Source: Eledone cirrhosa (lineage: Eukaryota). Taken from it: 64,000 nucleotides of DNA. Position 1 is the stretch's first letter. Each line of letters opens with the position of its first letter. The notes under the pieces are model-generated. The model worked only from the letters and a program-made list of their open reading frames with translations. It did not search any database and was not told the DNA's origin. The stretch is taken from contig OZ024740.1 in the NCBI GenBank assembly GCA_964016885.1, positions 258,788,001 through 258,852,000 on the forward strand, read 5' to 3'. This document shows, one piece after another, positions 2,790-60,541 of the stretch. The position numbers and the translations under genes were made by a program.

Positions 2790-5150
<2,361 letters not shown>

Positions 5151-5249
5151 CAAACTGCATAAAATTTTTTGTATTTTCATTGGTCAATTTGAACTCCGTT
5201 CCCAAACGGACCTGAAATTTTGAATTGTTGTTATTATCAATAAATATAT

Positions 5250-5404
5250 TTCATTATTTCTGAAGACGGCATATATGTGTGTTTGGTATGTATATTTAAT
5301 CTTGATAGTTTGTATAATTTTGTATAATTTTGTACATAGATCTGTTGAATATGCATGCCAATTCTAACACATATATATCCTAGAAACGATCGTTAAATAA
5401 TGAA
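5250..5404 (+). ncRNA. Type I hammerhead ribozyme motif with very long stem II (PLE 3' region)
   Basis: Stem I ttcattattt/aaataatgaa (10 bp); CTGAAGA 5260-5266; ~116 nt stem II (atatatgtgtgtt...aacacatatatat); GAAA 5383-5386; palindromic stem III cgatcg; GTT triplet. Confidence 0.75.
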
Positions 5405-5836
5405 CTTTTTTTGTTTAATATAAGGAACTGTTTCATTGTTTTATTCATTATTTTTTTAATATTTTATCTTGACTCTGTATTCCGTTTATCTTTCACCGAA
5501 AGTGATTTTTCATTGCATCTCTTCTTTCCATGATATCCGGACTGCATTGAGTTCTTCATACGGATTGGACACTACCGTAAACTCTTGGTAGATTTATCTA
5601 CATAAATATATATTAACACATTTTTGACAGCGATACATGCCCCAGCTAACAGGACAGACACGCGTGGTAAGTAATACACACAAAAGCACATATACATACG
5701 TACGAAATAGTAAACACATACACACACTCTCACACATAAATATACATATACAAATACATAAACACGTACATACACATACATACACAAACACGTACACGTA
5801 TACAATATAAACACACACATGTATATGTAATTATAT

Positions 5837-7611: not shown

Positions 7612-7985
7612 ACAATAATAAATTTGAAGACTGAAATCCAAAGCGGTCTCGATAAGTTTGAATATATATCAAATATATAAGAACCCTATTACCACGCTAA
7701 AAATTCTGATTTAGTCTAGATATAGCCGTCGAAACGGAAGGAAATCTGCCGTCGGGGTTATACATTTTCCTATTGCCCACTCTGCTACCCTAAGTATTGA
7801 GTCCTCTGGTGTGTTATGGTCCATATGGTCCCTTACCACACTTACTTCTTTATATATATGTATCATTTCTGATTTTTGCGTTTCGCTTCGCTTTTCCTGC
7901 CCGCCGAAATGCGATTGTCGCTGAATCTTTATTTGTATATATACATATATATATATACATATATATATATACATATATGTATATA

Positions 7986-8700: not shown

Positions 8701-10598
8701 ATATTGTTATACTTGGGGAGGGTCATATTTGTGTAATATTGCCAGAATTAATAACAGAACACACTCACTGCTTGGTTGGTTTTCGCTTCTGTGTCTTTTA
8801 TATCGGTTAATTTAATTTGAGTGAGCAGCCATTGACGTCAGCATAGCTGGTGACGTTGCCAACCTTTTTATGGTATGGTGGGAAAGGAGAGTTAAAGATC
8901 TCCTTGATGAGAGTTCCATAGACCTCATCATGTACTCTCGTTACGTAGACGATATCAATATAGTAGTAAGAACGTCCCCACAAGAGAGCACTAACAAGTT
9001 TGATTTAGAACGTAGCACAATGGAAAGCATCCAGCAGATAGCTAATTCCATACACCAGAGTATAACTGTAACTATCGACTACCCTTCCAAACACCCTAAC
9101 AATAGACTACCTGTATTAGACACGGAACTCTGGATTAACACTATAGACGAGAGAGCCCAAATTCTCCACTCACACTATGTTAAACCCATGGCTTCCAAAT
9201 ACCTGATACTCAAAAACTCAGCAATGTCCAGTAGTGCTAAGTTTTTGATTCTGATCGCAGACTTGGTACGAGTGATGAAGAACGTGTCCCGCATGTGCGA
9301 CCCAACCAAAATGGAAAGACACATCCAACACTTCATCAACCGCATGCAGTTCTCTGGCTACAACCAAGGAAACAGAATTAGAGTATATGAAGGAGCCACG
9401 GAGAAGTATAAGACCCTCATAGAACTGGACATGAAAGGAATTTGCCCATTATAAAGGAGCAAATCATGGAATAGCTTAGATAGGGCTAGACATATGATAG
9501 GAAAAACCACCTCATGGTACGACAACCAGAGATACCAGAGTGTCATGTTTGTGGACGCTACCCCTGGAGGGAAATTAACTAACCAGTGTAGAAAGGCCCC
9601 GAGGAAGACCCACTTAAAGATTAAGGTGGTAGAAAAGCCTGGAACCACCATAAAATCCCTGATCAGCAAAACATACCTTTTTAAGAAAACCCACTGTTCT
9701 AATAGGAAATGTATCATATGTAAAGTAAACCCCCGGATAAACTGTAAAACTAGAAACGTAGTCTATAGCAGAAGATGTACAGAAAGTACTTGCAGAAACA
9801 TGACAACAACATACATAGACGAGACAGCTCGTAGCATAGGTGAAAAGATAGACCAACACTGGGGGAACTAAAAGGACGAAAAAACGGTTCAGTACTATAC
9901 GAACATGCCAGACAACAACCCCACGGTAACATAGACAACATAGAAATTAGAATAATATCTAAACATAGAAATGACCCAGCAGATAGGCAAATCAGAGAGG
10001 CCAGTGAAATAGAACTTAGAAGGCCAAGGCTAAACAGAAAAAATGAATGGAATAACAACAACACCCAAACAAACAACACTGACCTAAGAGAAGTATAAAT
10101 AAATAAATAGATAAATAAATAAATACATACACAAGCACAATAACAACAAACACACATAAACACACACTAGTAATGATAGAATACATTAACCAATACACAG
10201 TCAATCAATCACGAACACACATCAAACAAAACACTATACACACACACAAACGCATGCTCAAAGAAGACAAAAAAATAAACAAATAAATAAATATATAAAC
10301 AGACTAAATAAAGATGGCGTAGAAACTATAATGCAACGGGAGGAAACAATAGAACCACTGACGATGTTGCAGATGTGCAACGAAAGAACTTTGATAGACT
10401 ATATGTGTTTGTGTCTATACTGTATCTGTATTTTTGACAGTTGGTCAGTCAATGGCAACATTGAGGACCAAATAAATTAAATTAACCGATATAAAAGACA
10501 CAGAAGCGAAAAGCGAAAACCAACCAAACAGTGAGTGTGTTCTGTTATTAATTCTGGCAATATTACACAAATATGACCCTCCCCAAGTATAACAATAT
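8701..10598 (+). mobile_element. 5'-truncated Penelope-like element with an inverted copy of its 3' tail at the 5' end
   Basis: RT YSRYVDD and LPVLDTELW (8870-9454); degenerate GIY-YIG (C..C...C...NVVY...C...YIDETARS, 9494-10050); 8701-8818 is the reverse complement of 10474-10598; left side abuts (TA)n. Confidence 0.88.
10353..10400 (+). ncRNA. Hammerhead-like core in the PLE 3' UTR (stems I and III poorly resolved)
   Basis: CTGACGA-t-gttgca gatg tgcaac-GAAA; perfect stem II, but the downstream pairing is unclear. Confidence 0.45.
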
Positions 10599-10658
10599 TT
10601 GTTTCCACACAGGATTTCTTTAATTTCAAAGAAAAAATAATTTCTTTAATTTCAAAGA

Positions 10659-10986
10659 AATTAAAGAAATTATTTAGCCTGATAGTGGGGTTAAAAACCC
10701 TCGGAGAATATGGAAAAACATGAGTATTGACGTACATGGGAGTCGAACCCACACCTTTGGTTATCCGGACCACTGTGCTACCATTTACTTGACATTACAG
10801 TCGCTAAGTTTATAGCTTCTAATTTGAATGGAAAAAGACGGGTGATGTGTTGGTGTAAATGGTAGCATAGTGGTCCGGATAACCAAAGATGTGGGTTCGA
10901 CTCCCATGTACGTCAATACTCATCTTTTTCCATTTTCTCCGAGGGCTCTTAACCCCACTATCAGGCTAAATAATTTCTTTAATTTT
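10659..10986. repeat. Fold-back (inverted repeat, ~130 bp arms) containing a tRNA-like sequence
   Basis: 10659-10788 is a near reverse complement of 10855-10986. Confidence 0.9.
10844..10915 (+). tRNA. tRNA-like cloverleaf (pseudo-tRNA or SINE head); anticodon ambiguous, GGA if read literally
   Basis: Acceptor gatgtgt/gtacgtc; D arm gtgt aaatggta gcat; anticodon arm gtggt ccggata accaa; T arm gtggg ttcgact cccat; A and B boxes; TTTTT about 10 nt downstream. C at position 33 and a short variable loop do not fit a real Ser tRNA. Confidence 0.55.
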
Positions 10987-18331: not shown

Positions 18332-19460
18332 TAGGGAATGTCGAAACATGTAAATAAATCCTAGTCATTTAGAACATTTATGGTACATAATTGTTTTTAG
18401 TGTCAAAGGCATCACATGGAGAGTCAGGAGTTAAAAAGATGTTCTGTTTGAAAGAACACAATTATAGGCAGCACTGGTTGAAAGTGTAAGCTCTATACGC
18501 GAAAAGCACAAGAAAAAAATACAGGCAAAAAAGTTACAAGCAAGGAAAATTGGTGTACAATGCAGGAGTCAATACAGTCAATAAGGCATTATGAGGAAAG
18601 AGTTATAATGCAGTTGAAATATATGTATTTTGTGTGGGTGTTAAAGCATGTTATTATTGTTATAAATGTTTAAGATAGTGTGCAATTTGTTAGAGAGGCA
18701 TGTGGTGATAATGCAGGTATTTGTTATGTAAGGTATAATGCAAAGCACGTGCTAGAGTTGGATATGTGATTTTCATACAAGTGTGTTTGTGTTGTAGTTC
18801 GTATGTATGTGTATATGTTGTTTGTAACTCACAGCCATTAACCATGGGATTATTTTGAGTCGTTTATAGTCAATAGGTGTTTGTTTTTTAAATGTAAATC
18901 CCACCGAATTACTGGCCATGTTGTTATTGTAGATATATTATCTGATGCATTTTTTATCTACAAATTATCTTTTCTAGGGTTTGTATTAACTGTTATTAAG
19001 CTGTTGGTAAACCGTTAGGTTTACCAACAACTTAATAACGGTTAATACAGTTAATAACCTAACGGTGTATGTACTGTTTATTTATTTCGAATTTTGTTAT
19101 TATTTTTCTTTATATAGGTGGAATAAAATTTGTTAATTAAGTTATAGGAAAAGTTCGTAAAAAGCAGTGGCAGGCAATATAATTAGTTAGCGTAATATGT
19201 AAAGAAAATGATATATAAAAATATATATTCAGAAAATATATGTAGCACATACGGAGATTACCGGATTAACTAGTCAGGTTCAAATAATAAAAGAAAATAT
19301 TTCCTTCAAGTAGGGATAACATTCTCCATAGCAAGCTATTTAATAGTCTTCCCTCATTTTAAGCAGGTTAAAAGAATTTGTCTATATGATATGTATTGTG
19401 GCGGTGTATTTTTCAGTATATGCCCCTTGTTAAAAGATTGTCATCATTTACTATGTATAG

Positions 19461-31510: not shown

Positions 31511-31699
31511 GTAAAGTATATTTAATCGAACCCTCACGGGTCCGATTAAATATACTTCCAATAAAGTCAAACTTGATCTATGCGGGATTTGAAACCAGAA
31601 CGTAGAAGTCCATAACGAAATACTGCAATGTATTTCGTCTGATTATATATACATAAAAAATAAATATCTCCCTCTCTCTATATATATATATGTAAAAGA

Positions 31700-32080: not shown

Positions 32081-32415
32081 TATATATATATATATAGACA
32101 TATACATATATATATAATATATATATATATATATAATATAATATATATATATGTGTATATATATATAATATAATATATATATACACACATATATATATTA
32201 TTATATATATATGTGTATATATATTATATTATTTTTATATATATATATACACACATATATATATATTATTATTATATATATATATATATAAATATATATA
32301 TATATGTATATGTCTATATATATATATGTCTATATATATATATAATATAATATAATATATATATATATGTCTATATATATATATATATATAGACATATAT
32401 TATATTATATTATAT

Positions 32416-32446
<31 letters not shown>

Positions 32447-32465
32447 GACATATATGTATATAGAC

Positions 32466-44798: not shown

Positions 44799-44921
44799 AT
44801 TTATTTCAGATAGCAATTCTTTCTACAGGACTAAAACTGTTACATTTGGTTGAAATCATCAGGACTCGAAGCGAATGAAACATTTCTAGTCCTGTTAAAG
44901 TAATTTCTATCTGAAATAAAT
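44799..44921. repeat. Short fold-back with a degenerate HHR on the minus strand (same family as 55133-55259)
   Basis: Arms atttatttcagatag/ctatctgaaataaat; minus strand reads tcctgatgatttc...gtaacagttttagtcctgta. Confidence 0.75.
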
Positions 44922-45001
44922 CATGTACTATTTCTACTAAAAATATTGAGTACTTTATTTAACCCTGATCCCTTTTCATTCCTCCTCAATATATCATAAA
45001 C

Positions 45002-45075
<74 letters not shown>

Positions 45076-45096
45076 ATATATATGTATATATATATG

Positions 45097-45127
<31 letters not shown>

Positions 45128-45142
45128 GTATATATATATATG

Positions 45143-45239
<97 letters not shown>

Positions 45240-45242
45240 GTA

Positions 45243-45328
<86 letters not shown>

Positions 45329-45331
<3 letters not shown>

Positions 45332-45383
45332 CATTGAGTTCTTCATACGGATTGGACACTACCGTATGAAGAACTCAATGTAA
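45329..45383. repeat. 55 bp perfect hairpin embedded in (TA)n
   Basis: ttacattgagttcttcatacgg-attggacacta-ccgtatgaagaactcaatgtaa. Confidence 0.95.
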
Positions 45384-45463
45384 TATATGTATATATATAT
45401 ATGTGTATATATATATGTATATATATATATGTGTATATATATATGTATATATATGTGTATATT

Positions 45464-45565
<102 letters not shown>

Positions 45566-50913: not shown

Positions 50914-51026
50914 ATAGGAACGAGTATGACCCCGACGGCTGAGCTCAAGCCGTTTCGACGGCTAATTCTGGACTCAGAATTAGCCGTCGAAACGGCTTGA
51001 GCTCAGCCATCGGGGTCCTACTCGTT

Positions 51027-51222: not shown

Positions 51223-53349
51223 CGTAGTTTAGAAAGCCACAACAATGCAGAGGGAAATCTCGAGGTAGGAAGTGAATGATAGATAGGAGAAATAGAATAA
51301 AGTGAAAATTGAGAGAGAGACAAAGATGAAAACAAAACAAAGGTAGAAGGGTTACCGTAGTGGAGATTTAATCCCAATATTTCGGGCTCACGCCCATCAA
51401 CGGGGGAAAGTTCCAGAAGGGGGGGAACAGGCTAAGCGGAGAAAGTTGTGATGTCGTTAAAACAGGAATGCCGTTATGGGGAGAAAATTATTTAAAATTT
51501 AAAAGAGGGAAAGAATGCGCGTGCGCGTGATAGGCTGTGGCAAAAGCTACTGACCAAATGCGTTAAATCAAGAGGGTGCGCTAGCGTGTGAAAGCCGTAA
51601 AATATGTGTGTGTAAATATATATGTGTGTGTAACTGTGTGTGTATATGTGTATATGTGTGAGTGTGTGTGTGTGTGAAAGATAGTGGGCTGTAGAAGCTG
51701 GAAATCAAAGGGTGTGAAAGGTGGTAGGTTGTAAAACATGTGTGCGTGTATAAATATAGATGTGTGTGTGTAAGCGTATGGGTATACATGTGTGTGTAAC
51801 TGTGTGTGTATATGTGTGAGTGCGTGTGTGTGTGAAAGATAGTGGGCTGTAGAAGCTGGAAATCAAAGGGTGTGAAAGGTGGTAGGTTGTAAAATCATGT
51901 GTGCGTGTATAAATATAGATGTGTGTGTGTGTATGCGTATGGGTATGCATATACGTGCGTGTGTGTGAAAATAGCAGGCCGTAAGGGCTGTGAATGGTCA
52001 CTATGGTTAAGTTAGCCATGTCAGCTCATTTCTCTCAGCCCAGTTGTTAAGTGGGGGTCTGAGGTTCTTAATAATAAGTGCTTCCTTTATCCTTACGGAT
52101 CCGATGCTGCGTTCAGTCGCTAGGACTGTGACCAAGGGTCTACCCTGTGGGTTTCCGCATTTAAGGATGTGTTTACGGAAGGAAGATGCGTTGGTGTTGA
52201 TATGTTCCTTGATACGAACATGTAAAACTTGTTACATTTATCGCATTGAATCTTATATACGACATAGGTGCGTAGGCAATCTGCCCCCCGTATCGGGCAG
52301 TTGCTGAGGGAACACGTCCCATCTGACTCGTCAGGTTTGTTGGAGAGGCATCTTCGCAGCGAAGGTCCTGTGTGGGCCAAATGTATGTCAAGTCCCTCCC
52401 TCCGTATGCGGATGGCGTTCGTGGTATATTCACTCAGGTGGGGGATTTTAAAGAAGCACCTGCTTTTAATTAAGTTTCTAGTGGGAGTCTGTCTATTGGG
52501 TCTGGGGTCTCTAATTCCGTTAATCAGTCGCTTGGGATATCCATTAGACCTGAGTAGATTACGGAATTGCGTGGTATGGGTGAGACCACCCATCGGGTCG
52601 CTGCATCTGTTAGTTATCCGTGTCAGTTCATTTAGGACATAGCCTCTCTTAGCGTTGTTGGGGAGGGCTGAGTTGTAATGCACAAACAAGTCCTTGCACG
52701 CTGCTTTGCGGTAGAAGGTGGTGTTTATGTCTCCTTCTTCCGAGATGTTGATACGGAAGTCGAGGAGGGCGAGTGACCCGTCTTCTCCTGGGTGTTCGAT
52801 GGTGAAATCGACGTGATGGTCAGTATCGTTGAAGATTTGGTGAATTTCATTCGCCATCTCCCGGGAAGAAGTAAGTATCAGGATGTCATCAACGTATCTG
52901 GAGTAGAAGGCGACGGCGTTGGGTTGGCAGGTATTGAGTGCCTTGCGTTCCAGGTGGTCCATGTACGAGATCGCAAGTATGCCGGATAGACTAGAGCCCA
53001 TAGGTAGCCCAGAGATTTGTTTGTACGTGTGGCCGAGGAAATTGAAGAGTGCATTATCCACATTTTAAATAATTTTCTCCCCATAACGGCATTCCTGTTT
53101 TAACGACATCACAACTTTCTCCGCTTAGCCTGTTCCCCCCCCCCTCCCCTTTGGAACTTTCCCCCGTTGATGGACGTGAGCCCGAAATATTGGGATTAAA
53201 TCTCCACTATGGTAACCCTTCTACCTTTGTTTTGTTTTCATCTTTGTCTCTCTCAATTTTCACTTTATCCTATTTCTCCTATCTATCATTCACTTCCTAC
53301 CTCGAGATTTCCCTCTGCATTGTTGTGGCTTTCTAAACTACGTATTTTA
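51216..53349 (-). mobile_element. 5'-truncated Penelope-like element with inverted tail copy
   Basis: ORF 52120-53061: YKQISGLPMGSSLS, YSRYVDDIL, LLDFRI, C...C...VVYKIQCDKC. 51216-51498 is the reverse complement of 53062-53349. ~160 bp tandem duplication in the UTR. Confidence 0.92.
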
Positions 53350-53386
53350 CACATTTCACAATGCTTCAAGCAAACTTTAACACCCT

Positions 53387-53432
<46 letters not shown>

Positions 53433-53454
53433 AGGGTGTTAAAGTTAAAGAGGG

Positions 53455-53614
53455 TGTTTCTACTTTTGGCACAAGGCCAGCAATTACTCAGTACATTACT
53501 GGTACTTTATTTTATCGACCCCGTAAGGATGAAAGGCAAGGATAACCTCGGCGGGATTTGAATTCTACCAATACTGCCAATCCACCAACCAAGAAAGACG
53601 GTTTTATTTTGCAT

Positions 53615-55066: not shown

Positions 55067-55132
55067 GTTATTCCGGGTTGAATCGGAGGTAACCACAGTA
55101 AGTAAGGTACTCAATACATAGCAGAGTATAAC

Positions 55133-55259
55133 AGTTTTAATATAGATGAGATTCTACAGGACTAGAACTGTTTCATTCTTTAGAAATCATCCCACATCCT
55201 GATGATTTCTAAAGAATGAAACAGTTCTAGTCCTGTAGAATCTCATCTATATTAAAACT
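55133..55259. repeat. Perfect fold-back (59 bp arms) with an HHR core at the turn
   Basis: Loop 55192-55200; right side reads CTGATGA-tttct aa agaat-GAAA-cag...ctg-TA. Confidence 0.92.
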
Positions 55260-55864: not shown

Positions 55865-56769
55865 TGAGGTGTGTCAGAAAAGTTCCAGGACTGATGTCAC
55901 AGAGGATATATTTCAAACCCAAACTTCACACTAAGAGTTTTCTCCTTCAAAGTAAACCCCCTGGAGTCTAATGCACTTTTCCATCCTTTTCTGCCACGCT
56001 TGCATGCACTCCTGGAAAGATTCTTCCGGGATCCTCCGCAGTTCCGTCGTCACGGCCTTTTTGATGTCGTCCACGTCTTCAAAACGGGTCCCCTCCGGGT
56101 CGTACTCGAAGATCCATGGCTCGTCACCGGTGATGACTGTCCCTAGCAAGTCTGGTTCGGTTTCAAGACGCTCGAGGATGTCCTGGCACACTTGCATGCG
56201 TCGAACCTCTGGTCATCGTTCAGCAGTTTTGGCACCATCTTCGCGCAAACTTTCCGCATGTCCAAATCATCAGTGACAATCTTCCAGAAGCTGTCCCGAT
56301 TCATGCCCAGCTCATTTGCCATCAGTCGAACAGTCAGCCGACGATCGCTACACACCATCTGCCTGACGCGCTCAACGTTGACCTCAGTCCTGGTTGTTGA
56401 GGGCCTTCCGCTCCTGGGGTCGTCTTCCGCGTCCTCGCGTCCTTCTTTAAACCTCTTGCACCACTCAAAAACACGTGAACGTGTCTCCATACACTTGCTG
56501 CAGCAATTCAAATGCTTCTGACGGAGTTTTCCCCAACCGTACCAGAAACTTCAAGTTTGTTCGCTGCTCTGTGCTCATTGCTTGACGACCTGAAACAGAG
56601 GACATGTATATAAAATTATGAAGAAAAAAGTTTGATCGCTGCAGAGAGCTAAGATTACAGTTACATACTCCAGGGGGATTACTTTGAAGGAGAAAACTCT
56701 TAGTGTGAAGTTTGAGTTTGAAATAAATCTTTTGTGACGTCAGTCCTGGAACTTTTCTGACACACCTCG
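55865..56769 (-). mobile_element. Internally deleted mariner (Tc1/mariner) with ~100 bp TIRs and TA TSD
   Basis: VFEWCKRFKEGR, DDPRSGRPST, VCAKMVPKLL, VITGDEPWIFEYDPE, G.YFEG; TIRs 55865-55967 and 56667-56769. Confidence 0.92.
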
Positions 56770-56790
56770 TATATATATATACACACACAC

Positions 56791-57730
56791 ACGAGGTACA
56801 CTCAGGATGTTTTGAGACTTTTATCAGAAAGATATCTATTTAACTCAGATCAACACAAAACTCAAGTCTCCATCAAAGTAAAATCCTCCAACTTCAATGC
56901 ACTTGTAGCGCTCCAGCCACTGGAAGGTCCCCTAGTAGTCCTCCCAAGTGAATGTGTACAGGGCGCTTGTCACAGCCTATTTCATCTCCATATCCTCAAA
57001 CCAAATACCCCAGAACTTCTCCTTCAGCTTTTGTAACATCCACAACTCGCATGGGGCTAAGTCTGGACAGTAGGGAGGATGAGGGACAGTCTTGATCCCT
57101 ATAGGATCATCATGAACTACCCAGTAGACCTACTTTGCCAGGCCTTCTTGGTTCTTGGGGAGTCAGAATGTTTTACTGGGCACTCTGTCACTTGGTCTCT
57201 GGAGCATAACAGTAGACCCAGCTCTCGTCACGGGTCAGCAGAGAATCAAGAACACTTGGATTCGAAGCGATCCATTCTACCATCTCCCTGCTGTCATCAA
57301 CATGCCTTTGATCTTTATTGAATACCTTGGGACCAAACTTTACAAAAGCTTTGTGTGTGTTCAGATCGTCATCAATGACTCTACACAGTGCCCTCAGAAA
57401 TTTGCCAATTCTATTGACCAACTTTCTCATCCTAATATCCCTCTCCAGGCCGCACTTCTCGTCATCCCTCACCTGCTCCCCGCTTTCCTGGAACCTCTTT
57501 GCCAGTGCAAAACAATCGCTCGGCTCATGAAAGTTAGTCCATAAGCAGTGTTGACCATTTCATAGGTTTCTGCAGCGTTTTTGTCGAGTTTGACACAAAA
57601 CCGTTTCGCATATCACACCTAGAAGTTGTCCTCGCGTCCCGACTGCGTTGTGGAACCCGTCTGCTGTGACAAGGTGTGGGTGGCAAGTAGTGTGTATAGT
57701 GGTGTAGCGGCCCGAACCTCCAGCCTGGAA
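56791..57730 (-). mobile_element. Second, degenerate mariner
   Basis: KFGPK, TRDESWVYCYAPETK; HPPYCPDLAP-like motif near 57050-57080. Confidence 0.75.
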
Positions 57731-58292: not shown

Positions 58293-58568
58293 TGTAAATT
58301 CCTGAAAACTGTAGAGTGCTCAACTAATCGGGATGGAAAGTGCCAATCGTATATGTAATATAGAATATGCTTCAATCAATCCCGGTTGGAGCTGTATAAA
58401 TGGCCCGACTATGTTGATTCCAGAGTCGGGCCAGATCGAAGCAGATTGAACCTTGGCCTGGTCAATCACGAAACGTGCGTTACACCTCAATAAACATAAC
58501 TATTAAGCTCTGTTACCTACATAGAGCACTCTTTTTTCCTGGACTTTTCCGACGGAATTACTTCATTT

Positions 58569-59126: not shown

Positions 59127-59363
59127 TACTAATAATAAAAAGGACAAAGTGTCAGGTCCCCATTACGTTTATTGAAGTGTGACCCGCGTTTCACGATTGA
59201 TAGGCACATGGTTCGATCTGTATCGGTCTGGCCCGACTATTTTGATTCCAGAGTCGGGCCAGATCGATGCAGATTGTACCTTGGCCTGGTCAATCACGAA
59301 ACGTGCGTTACACCTCAATAAACATAACGGGGATCTAACACTTCGTCCTTTTTATTATTAGTA
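59127..59363. repeat. Fold-back of a PLE tail containing the 3' half of an HHR
   Basis: Arms ~110 bp around the hairpin tggcccgact...agtcgggcca; GAAA-cgtgcg-TT then aataaa. Confidence 0.9.
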
Positions 59364-59614: not shown

Positions 59615-60541
59615 CGAATAAGGAAAAGCGAAGTAGTTTCAGATGTTAAAGTCCTTTAATAATAATGCTGTGATATTTATTTCAATGGCGACAGTGGCCA
59701 CACTGTTCCGTGCGCCAGTGCCGCGACATCGTCAGACAGCTTGTTACATAATAAGGTTATGTTTCCGAGGCAATCCAAATTGAATCGACATGGGAACGGA
59801 CGAAGTGTGTGCTCTTGGGTTCTTCATCCGTTCCCTTGTGAGTACCAATTCACCCCCACCGGTCTGCGCAGACGCAGGTCCGAAGGAAGTTGACCATTAG
59901 CTACCGCAGATTTCAACGTAATTCGCCTAGTCAGTTCCCCCTCTCAACCAAACAATGACCCATTCAGGCCTGTTATATATAGCTTACTGCTAGCCAGCCC
60001 GTCTGAATGGGTCATTGTTTGGTTGAGAGGGGGAACTGACTAGGCGAATTACGTTGAAATCTGCGGTAGCTAATGGTCAACTACCTTCGGACCTGCTCCT
60101 GCGCAGACCGGGGAAGGGGGGGGGTGAATTGGTACTCACAAGGGAACGGATGAAGAACCCAAGAGCACACACTTCGTCCGTTCCCATGTCGATTCAATTT
60201 GGATTGCCTCGGAAACATAACATTATTATGTAACAAGCTGTCTGACGATGTCGCGGCACTGGCGCACGGAACTGTGTGGCCATGTCGCCATTGAAATATA
60301 TATCACAGCATCATTGAGTTGGCAGTATCGGTAGAGTGTCGGACATGCTTTCCAGCATAGTTATGTCCCTTTACGATCTGAGTTCAAATCCCGCCGAGGT
60401 TAACTTTGCCTTTCATCCTTACGGGTCGATAAAATAAAGTACCAGTAATATACTGGAATAATTGCTGGCCTTGTGCCAAAAGTAGAAACAATTATTATTA
60501 AAGGACTTGAACATCTGAAACTACTTCGCTTTTCCTTATTC
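59615..60541. repeat. Large fold-back (~350 bp arms) with an HHR in each arm and a SINE (60316-60498) inserted in the right arm
   Basis: 59667-59966 is the reverse complement of 60003-60309, and the arm resumes after the SINE; HHRs read gctgt-CTGACGA...GAAA-tatata-TC-acagc. Confidence 0.9.

What the first reader, a model, noticed from the sequence alone, without database searches (positions are those of the whole stretch)
45329..45383. Smallest fold-back: a 5 bp native hairpin extended to a 22 bp stem
5545-5579 contains cattgagttcttcatacgg-attggacacta-ccgta and then continues differently. Here the same sequence continues as the exact reverse complement of its own start and is embedded in (TA)n. 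This is the footprint expected from self-priming on the tacgg/ccgta hairpin.
Basis: partly seen in the sequence, partly recalled or inferred. Interest (0 to 1): 0.7.

Follow-up and report, generated by a model that had tools for sequence, protein, structure and literature searches.

The report
Snap-back hairpin from retroelement scrap
A 55-base perfect hairpin inside a (TA)n run consists of 38 bases of a repeated, Penelope-type sequence plus a mirror copy of its own start, likely left when a new DNA strand folded back on a tiny native stem; such scars are a known kind, and nothing here shows that the element's own enzyme made it.

Summary
The hairpin is real: 45329-45383, 22 bp perfect stem, 11 nt loop, inside one (TA)n tract. 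The look-alike at 5542-5579 lies in a multi-copy repeat (about 5160-5613) with a hammerhead-type motif and 3' ends that abut (AT)n, so it looks Penelope-like; no link to an RT gene was found. Contigs from three public runs carry the short form, and their majority letters at 5542 and 5544 match the hairpin's first bases. The long hairpin is therefore derived: 38 templated bases plus 17 copied back from a 5 bp micro-stem. Two corrections. The native site is a bulged 5+5 bp quasi-palindrome, not just 5 bp. The fold is tail-to-tail and lacks the element's 3' end, opposite to the usual Penelope fold-backs here. Both junctions are mirror images, which points to one junction copied by snap-back DNA synthesis. 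Host break repair or replication template switching gives this footprint as well as the element's RT; I favour host snap-back at a fragile TA tract (0.5) over RT second-strand snap-back (0.25) and RNA self-priming (0.12). The hairpin locus itself was not checked in reads. Known kind of scar; low interest.

The parts
45329..45350 (+). Left arm, 22 nt; equals family positions 5542-5563 in sense orientation. Its last 5 nt (45346-45350) are the native micro-stem's 5' half
   Evidence: family letters at 5542 and 5544
45351..45361 (+). 11 nt loop, identical to 5564-5574
45362..45366 (+). Native 3' half of the 5 bp micro-stem (= 5575-5579); the inferred snap-back primer
45367..45383 (+). 17 nt reverse-complement copy of 45329-45345, not present after 5579 in the window copy or the listed family contigs; the inferred snap-back product, including a mirror of the left junction
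44996..45328 (.). Left part of the host (TA)n tract; 2 nt AT microhomology with family positions 5541-5542 at the junction (45328-45329)
   Evidence: for the family letter at 5542
45384..45562 (.). Right part of the same tract, same strand bias of interruptions (not an inversion of the left part)
5542..5591 (+). Native, unfolded counterpart: bulged quasi-palindrome (5549-5553 with 5580-5584; 5559-5563 with 5575-5579; outer 4 bp 5542-5545 with 5588-5591)
5160..5613 (+). Multi-copy Penelope-type repeat holding the native counterpart; copies end at 5467 or about 5601-5613, followed by (AT)n or (CA)n; left boundary approximate
5250..5404 (+). Type I hammerhead-like motif: 10 bp stem I, core at 5260-5266, 116 nt stem II region, GAAA at 5383, palindromic stem III; sets the sense strand as +
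   Evidence: no Rfam match

Best explanation
The hairpin is 38 sense-strand bases of a Penelope-type repeat joined to a (TA)n tract and followed by a mirror copy of their first 17 bases, likely made when a free 3' DNA end folded back on the native 5 bp stem and was extended by a host repair or replication polymerase. Inferred steps: (1) a very short piece of the repeat became joined to the tract at a 2 nt AT microhomology, either as an ordinary 5'-truncated insertion of about 72 bp (5542-5613) or as a templated capture at a break; (2) the top strand ended after 5579, for example after a break in the fragile TA tract to its right and trimming; (3) it paired with 5559-5563 and was extended along itself through the left junction into the AT run; (4) the new AT end annealed to the rest of the tract, which dropped the element's last 34 bases. 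It is a one-off scar with no evident function.
For: Shown: stem, loop and 35 of 35 identity. Family majority letters at 5542 (T: 39 contigs and 155500 of 193170 summed depth in X4; 43.4 of 43.4 in X1; 138.9 of 222.4 in X8) and 5544 (A: all depth in the three) equal the hairpin's first bases, so the arm is templated from 5542. The family runs on past 5579 without the long arm: X1 record 6 spans 5438-5604 with 2 other letters and no gap, X8 record 23 spans 5545-5613 with 1 other letter and no gap. Only 16 of 424 possible top-strand ends in the repeat can snap back with 5 bp or more (loop 3-20), and 5579 is one; its stem is the second most stable of 15. The break in AT phase at the left junction is mirrored at the right, as expected if one junction was copied. 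Polarity is tail-to-tail, whereas 3 of the 5 other long perfect stems that I examined are head-to-head, 1 is tail-to-tail and 1 unassigned. That other tail-to-tail case (53373-53458) turns in a (TA)n run and re-primes once more, a pattern like iterative repair synthesis. Literature: snap-back synthesis-dependent end joining (PMC5728401, passages); yeast distant inverted insertions with median 50 bp overlap, 2-20 bp between junctions, median 6 bp inner and 2 bp outer microhomology (PMC11724301, section 19), against 11, 5 and 2 here; Pol theta stem-loop extension (PMC11292364, abstract); TA repeats break and are mended by microhomology joining (PMC13645644, abstract).
Against: One sequence cannot name the polymerase; second-strand synthesis during the element's own insertion gives the same product. 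The window is full of Penelope fold-backs, so the element's RT is an obvious candidate. The yeast and human data come from other organisms, partly from mutants. Target-site duplication cannot be read in (TA)n.
Confidence: 0.5

Rival explanations
1. Made in one step during the element's own insertion: first-strand cDNA ran 72 nt from the 3' end to 5542, the other target end primed the second (sense) strand at the AT microhomology, and that strand snapped back at 5579 under the element's RT, displacing the first strand. Priming on an antisense RNA would give the same product.
For: Family copies end in (AT)n in three runs, so the target fits. A Poseidon-type protein cuts and extends both strands of AT-rich DNA in vitro (PMC11167929, parts 1-2 of 4). 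The mirrored junction is explained equally well.
Against: The fixed 3' end where reverse transcription would start is absent. The hairpin form is not among the listed loose ends or joints of the family (113 loose-end rows hidden), so it is not a routine product. Usual fold-backs of this family (loose end before 5253 in X1 and X8) are head-to-head.
Confidence: 0.25
2. One reading: a sense RNA ending at 5579 folds on the micro-stem and primes the element's RT, and the RNA-DNA hairpin is then inserted into (TA)n.
For: [quoted passage not shown] The RNA can form the stem.
Against: Needs two independent junctions at the same base, although a longer AT match lies a few bases upstream (5534-5537), or a 38 nt RNA with exactly these ends. 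No sign of molecules ending at 5579 (table 6 empty; contigs cannot show RNA ends). In the folded RNA the micro-stem is part of a longer stem, so 5579 is not a natural end.
Confidence: 0.12
3. Assembly or library artefact: a fold-back chimera at a native quasi-palindrome, mis-joined through (TA)n flanks.
For: The locus was not checked in reads; long TA tracts are hard to assemble.
Against: The hairpin carries family letters that differ from the window's own copy at 5542 and 5544; the flanks keep one strand bias across it; the window has no N and holds decayed, imperfect fold-backs of other families, so such structures exist in this genome.
Confidence: 0.08
4. The long hairpin is the ancestral or an independent unit: a 55 bp miniature inverted-repeat transposon with TA target duplication, and 5545-5584 is a decayed copy that lost 5 nt of one arm.
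For: It is flanked by TA on both sides. 5580-5584 matches the long arm after a 5 nt gap; 8 of 449 five-mers of the repeat would do so at some gap of 1-10.
Against: The short form is the family form in three runs; in X1 the depth over 5490-5569 (43.4) equals record 6 alone, so no hairpin-form contig was laid there. The arm starts inside a longer element, not at its end. No likeness to the inverted ends of the mariner-like element at 55867-56767. One copy in the window.
Confidence: 0.05

Closest known systems
[quoted passage not shown] 2017, PMC5728401, passages) and Pol theta stem-loop extension (PMC11292364, abstract)
   Same: A 3' end pairs with a short inverted repeat on its own strand, is extended, and the new end anneals by microhomology across the break, leaving a longer inverted repeat.
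   Different: There the break and enzyme are known; here both are inferred, and the folded piece is retroelement sequence sitting in a TA tract.
Distant inverted insertions at yeast double-strand breaks (Yu et al. 2024, PMC11724301, abstract and section 19)
   Same: Two overlapping pieces of one distant locus in inverted orientation; 2-20 bp between junctions, median 6 bp inner and 2 bp outer microhomology; here 11, 5 and 2.
   Different: Seen mostly in rad27 and RPA mutants of yeast; there the outer junctions are made by end joining and need not mirror each other.
Short template switches that perfect quasi-palindromes (Loytynoja and Goldman 2017, PMC5453318, abstract and opening)
   Same: An imperfect inverted repeat becomes a perfect hairpin by copying the nascent strand.
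   Different: Needs a pre-existing copy at the site, which I could not look for.
Inverted insertions of endonuclease-bearing Penelope-like elements (Arkhipova et al. 2013, PMC3846280; Craig et al. 2021, PMC8557442; passages)
   Same: Palindromes at inverted junctions, already read as self-priming; AT-rich or microsatellite targets; alternative 3' ends.
   Different: Those are mostly head-to-head with the element's 3' ends outside; this one is tail-to-tail and has lost the 3' end.
Type I hammerheads of metazoan Penelope-like elements (Cervera and de la Pena 2014, PMC4209133, passages)
   Same: Core, stem I, small palindromic helix III in the source repeat at 5250-5404.
   Different: Stem II region is 116 nt instead of 7-8 bp and has two extra bases before GAAA; activity untested.

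Membership tests
Penelope-like element (source repeat 5160-5613) | Interspersed multi-copy repeat with variable 5' and fixed 3' ends | tested here: met
   2114, 38 and 26 contigs laid in X4, X1, X8; loose ends behind 5467 (all listed as AT runs, X4 and X1) and behind 5613 (X1, X8); varied loose ends before 5153-5472. Raw run X10 gave only 10 poor reads, none over 5542-5579.
Penelope-like element (source repeat 5160-5613) | Type I hammerhead motif in the terminal repeat | tested here: met
   Descriptor hit at 5260 with 10 bp stem I and 4 bp stem III; 0 of 2000 shuffles of the repeat and 0 of 40 of the window gave a hit. Stem II junction is irregular and Rfam gave no match, so motif only, not activity.
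Penelope-like element (source repeat 5160-5613) | Joined to an ORF with Penelope-type RT and GIY-YIG endonuclease | tested here: inconclusive
   The 43 aa frame 5460-5588 found no relative; the single hit is a repetitive sequence without element features. No genome held.
Penelope-like element (source repeat 5160-5613) | Head-to-head palindrome at the 5' truncation | tested here: met
   Loose end before 5253 in one contig each of X1 and X8 is the reverse complement of 5255-5268.
Canonical Penelope inverted insertion (the hairpin itself) | Head-to-head polarity with the element's 3' end at the outer ends | tested here: not met
   Outer ends are position 5542, loop lies on the 3' side, 5580-5613 is missing.
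Canonical Penelope inverted insertion (the hairpin itself) | Target-site duplication or one-sided tail | tested here: inconclusive
   Flanks are (TA)n, so a duplication cannot be read.
Snap-back repair or template-switch scar | Pre-existing short inverted primer repeat at the turn | tested here: met
   5 bp at 5559-5563 and 5575-5579, present in the unfolded family form.
Snap-back repair or template-switch scar | New end joined by microhomology to the far side | tested here: met
   Stem runs 5 bp into AT on both sides; trivially available in (TA)n, so weak.
Snap-back repair or template-switch scar | Dependence on a host polymerase; a precursor allele | not testable with these tools
   Needs population data or experiments.
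MITE (Tc1/mariner type) | Many copies of the same terminal-inverted unit, ends shared with an autonomous transposon | tested here: not met
   One copy in the window, no hairpin-form contig in X1 and none among listed rows of X4 and X8 (113 rows hidden), no likeness to the window's mariner-like ends.

The most novel reading that the evidence does not exclude
Penelope-type RT itself makes tail-to-tail products, by self-priming on a sense RNA end or by snapping back its second strand on the stem-loop near the element's 3' end. This 55 bp scar would then be a minimal natural record of the polarity that Arkhipova et al. predicted for sense-template self-priming, and a ready 38 nt substrate for the in vitro assay.
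Probability: 0.3. Interest if true: 0.5.

Novelty: new member of a known kind. Interest (0 to 1): 0.2.

Why it matters
As it stands it is one small scar of a known process. Its use is as a caution and a test case: not every hairpin made of Penelope sequence was made by Penelope RT, and polarity relative to the hammerhead strand separates the routine head-to-head products from rarer tail-to-tail ones. If a genome-wide count showed tail-to-tail folds recurring at this stem-loop in fresh insertions, it would bear on the open question of how these elements prime their second strand.

Tried and rejected
No whole genome is held, so no copy count or empty-site search. Rfam on the whole window gave only microRNA-model matches to simple repeats and one tRNA among the 150 of 303 rows shown; on 5200-5640 it gave 0 matches. 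A 24 nt core found 0 exact matches in metagenome contigs. Protein searches with the 43 aa frame 5460-5588 found nothing usable. Earlier notes of this scan: nothing by sequence or place, 0 for the long word list, 23 for the short one, 8 shown, all other genomes. Raw Hi-C run X10 laid 10 reads, all under 90% alike and none over 5542-5579, which I cannot explain for a multi-copy family. Rejected: inversion of the whole TA tract (same strand bias both sides); a mariner-derived end; a microRNA (a 38-bit match to mir-5014 against a cut-off of 101 reflects any long stem). A paper search for Penelope with 'tail-to-tail' gave 5 papers; of these I read only PMC3846280, so I make no claim that tail-to-tail cases are unreported. 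The supplement of PMC13282606 was listed but not read; a repeat library there or elsewhere may already name the family.

Full report
Observation. Window 45329-45383 is a perfect hairpin with a 22 bp stem and an 11 nt loop; the stem extends 5 bp further into the self-complementary AT flanks. Positions 45332-45366 equal 5545-5579 at 35 of 35. The 22 nt arm has 3 matches in the window at up to 3 mismatches, both arms and 5542-5563, and none in 100 shuffles. The window holds 9 perfect stems of 17 bp or more; 30 block-wise shuffles gave 1 in total. The hairpin sits in a single tract, 44996-45562: G interruptions lie on the + strand on both sides, so the tract was not inverted. One detail of the finding is wrong: after 5579 the native copy goes on with five bases that pair with 5549-5553, so the native site is a 5+5 bp stem with a 5 nt bulge and an outer 4 bp helix. 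The fold is only modestly better than chance (z -1.88; 8 of 200 shuffles).

What the source is. No genome is held. A search of public runs with 5150-5720 listed 15 runs, 9 of which hold the stretch or part of it. I laid 4 of the 15. In X4, X1 and X8, three different organism labels, 2114, 38 and 26 contigs lay on the stretch, so about 5160-5613 is a repeat. Listed loose ends behind 5467 and 5613 are AT runs, one variant group ends in a CA run, and loose ends on the left vary. One contig each in X1 and X8 folds back before 5253, head-to-head. The raw run X10 gave 10 poor reads and none over the segment of interest. On the + strand, 5250-5404 fits a type I hammerhead descriptor: 10 bp stem I, core at 5260, GAAA at 5383 and a palindromic stem III; 0 of 2000 shuffles of the repeat gave a hit. 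In many family contigs position 5394 is A (57 in X4), giving a GUA triplet, and the changes at 5399 and 5400 keep G-U pairing in stem I; the change at 5250 breaks its end pair. The stem II region is 116 nt and has two extra bases before GAAA, and Rfam does not match it, so it is a motif, not a shown ribozyme. Such motifs mark Penelope-like terminal repeats (PMC4209133, passages); alternative 3' ends downstream of the hammerhead and AT-rich targets are also typical (PMC11167929, parts 1-2 of 4; PMC8557442, passages). I could not join the repeat to an RT gene. So: Penelope-type, sense on +, membership not fully shown. The window also holds RT-like fragments (Pfam RVT_1 in 2 of 6 frames scanned). 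The host looks like an octopus from its SINEs; that is recalled and was not tested.

Direction of derivation. At 5544 all summed contig depth in the three runs has A, and at 5542 most has T; these are the letters at 45331 and 45329. The hairpin's arm therefore equals family positions 5542-5563 exactly, the break in AT phase at the left junction is templated, and the join to the tract uses a 2 nt AT microhomology. After 5579 the family continues as in the window: X1 record 6 covers 5438-5604 with 2 other letters and no gap, X8 record 23 covers 5545-5613 with 1 other letter and no gap. No 5 nt insertion and no strand-changing joint is listed; the one loose end shown behind 5579 (7 contigs, X4) is a different short-form variant. 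In X1 the depth over 5490-5569 equals record 6 alone. 113 loose-end rows were hidden and contigs drop rare variants, so this shows that the hairpin is not the family form, not that it is unique. None of the three runs shows the window's G at 5544, so none appears to be the source individual, and the hairpin locus itself was not checked in reads.

How it likely formed. The product is: tract, 38 sense bases (5542-5579), 17 bases copied back, tract. The turn is at a pre-existing 5 bp stem; 16 of 424 top-strand ends in the repeat offer such a stem, and this one is the second most stable of 15. The right junction mirrors the left one to the base, which is simplest if a single junction was copied by a strand that folded on itself and ran through into the AT run, then annealed to the rest of the tract. 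The polarity matters. Outer ends are on the element's 5' side, the loop is on its 3' side, and the last 34 bases, where copies normally end, are gone. Of the 9 long stems, 3 in the TA-rich stretch 32322-32455 were not examined and 1 is the finding; of the other 5, three are head-to-head (55133-55259 and 59888-60082 by hammerhead cores; 50937-51008 by alignment to 7702-7843 and its TA-abutting end, with no core hit), one is unassigned (10635-10675), and one is tail-to-tail (53373-53446). That last one lies beyond the one-sided 40-odd nt tail of an element with inverted terminal repeats, turns inside (TA)21 and re-primes once more before a SINE, which resembles iterative repair synthesis.

Which enzyme. 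But an RNA-primed hairpin needs two separate junctions at the same base. Host processes give the footprint directly: snap-back end joining (PMC5728401, passages), Pol theta stem-loop extension from two base pairs (PMC11292364, abstract), template switches that create hairpins (PMC5453318, abstract and opening), and yeast distant inverted insertions whose spacing and microhomologies (2-20 bp, median 6 and 2 bp) bracket the 11, 5 and 2 seen here (PMC11724301, abstract and section 19). TA repeats are break hotspots mended by microhomology joining in human cells (PMC13645644, abstract). I put host snap-back at 0.5, snap-back of the element's second strand during insertion at 0.25, RNA self-priming at 0.12, artefact at 0.08 and MITE or ancestral long form at 0.05. 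The first two differ only in timing and enzyme; an allele with the plain 72 bp copy would decide between them.

Novelty. Earlier notes of this scan on other genomes describe head-to-head Penelope fold-backs as routine (unchecked AI notes, leads only). I also saw passages of bioRxiv 10.64898/2026.07.22.740005 and PMC13282606 (supplement listed, not read); neither bears on the mechanism. This is a clean, tiny example of a known kind of scar, notable only for its reversed polarity. Interest 0.2.

Noticed in passing
window 5250-5404 (+): Hammerhead-type motif whose stem II region is 116 nt long and folds as one long hairpin, in a repeat shared by at least three organism labels; much longer than the 7-8 bp described for Penelope hammerheads. 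A GT...AG stretch inside it might be a small intron (by eye, untested).
   Followed up: partly
window 7404, 12420, 12516, 47114 (+): Four more type I hammerhead descriptor hits; 12420 and 12516 lie 96 nt apart; 0 hits in 40 shuffles.
   Followed up: partly
window 51225-53458: Penelope-type element with RT on the minus strand, inverted terminal repeats and a one-sided tail; beyond the tail a tail-to-tail fold through (TA)21 with a second re-priming, joined to a SINE.
   Followed up: partly
window 10662-10981: 320 bp imperfect inverted repeat (84% between arms) whose right arm holds a tRNA-Ser(GGA) call at 10843-10916; a 19 bp hairpin with re-primed repeats sits at its left junction (10635-10675).
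   Followed up: no
window 58401-58500 and 59130-59360: Two insertions of one family turn at the same short palindrome, one with a 10 bp and one with a roughly 100 bp second arm.
   Followed up: partly
window 44799-44961 and 55099-55259: Two fold-back copies of one hammerhead-bearing family; the older one directly precedes the TA tract that holds the finding.
   Followed up: partly
window 8706-10593: Degenerate Penelope-type RT region (8825-9871) between inverted terminal repeats 8706-8818 and 10474-10593; no Pfam match for the two frames scanned.
   Followed up: no
window 55867-56767 and 57128-57559: Mariner-like transposase remnants, the first with about 100 bp inverted ends.
   Followed up: partly
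window 18982-19066 and 31514-31557: Further short hairpins (12 and 15 bp perfect stems), the first with nested re-primed repeats, the second next to a (TACA)n run.
   Followed up: no
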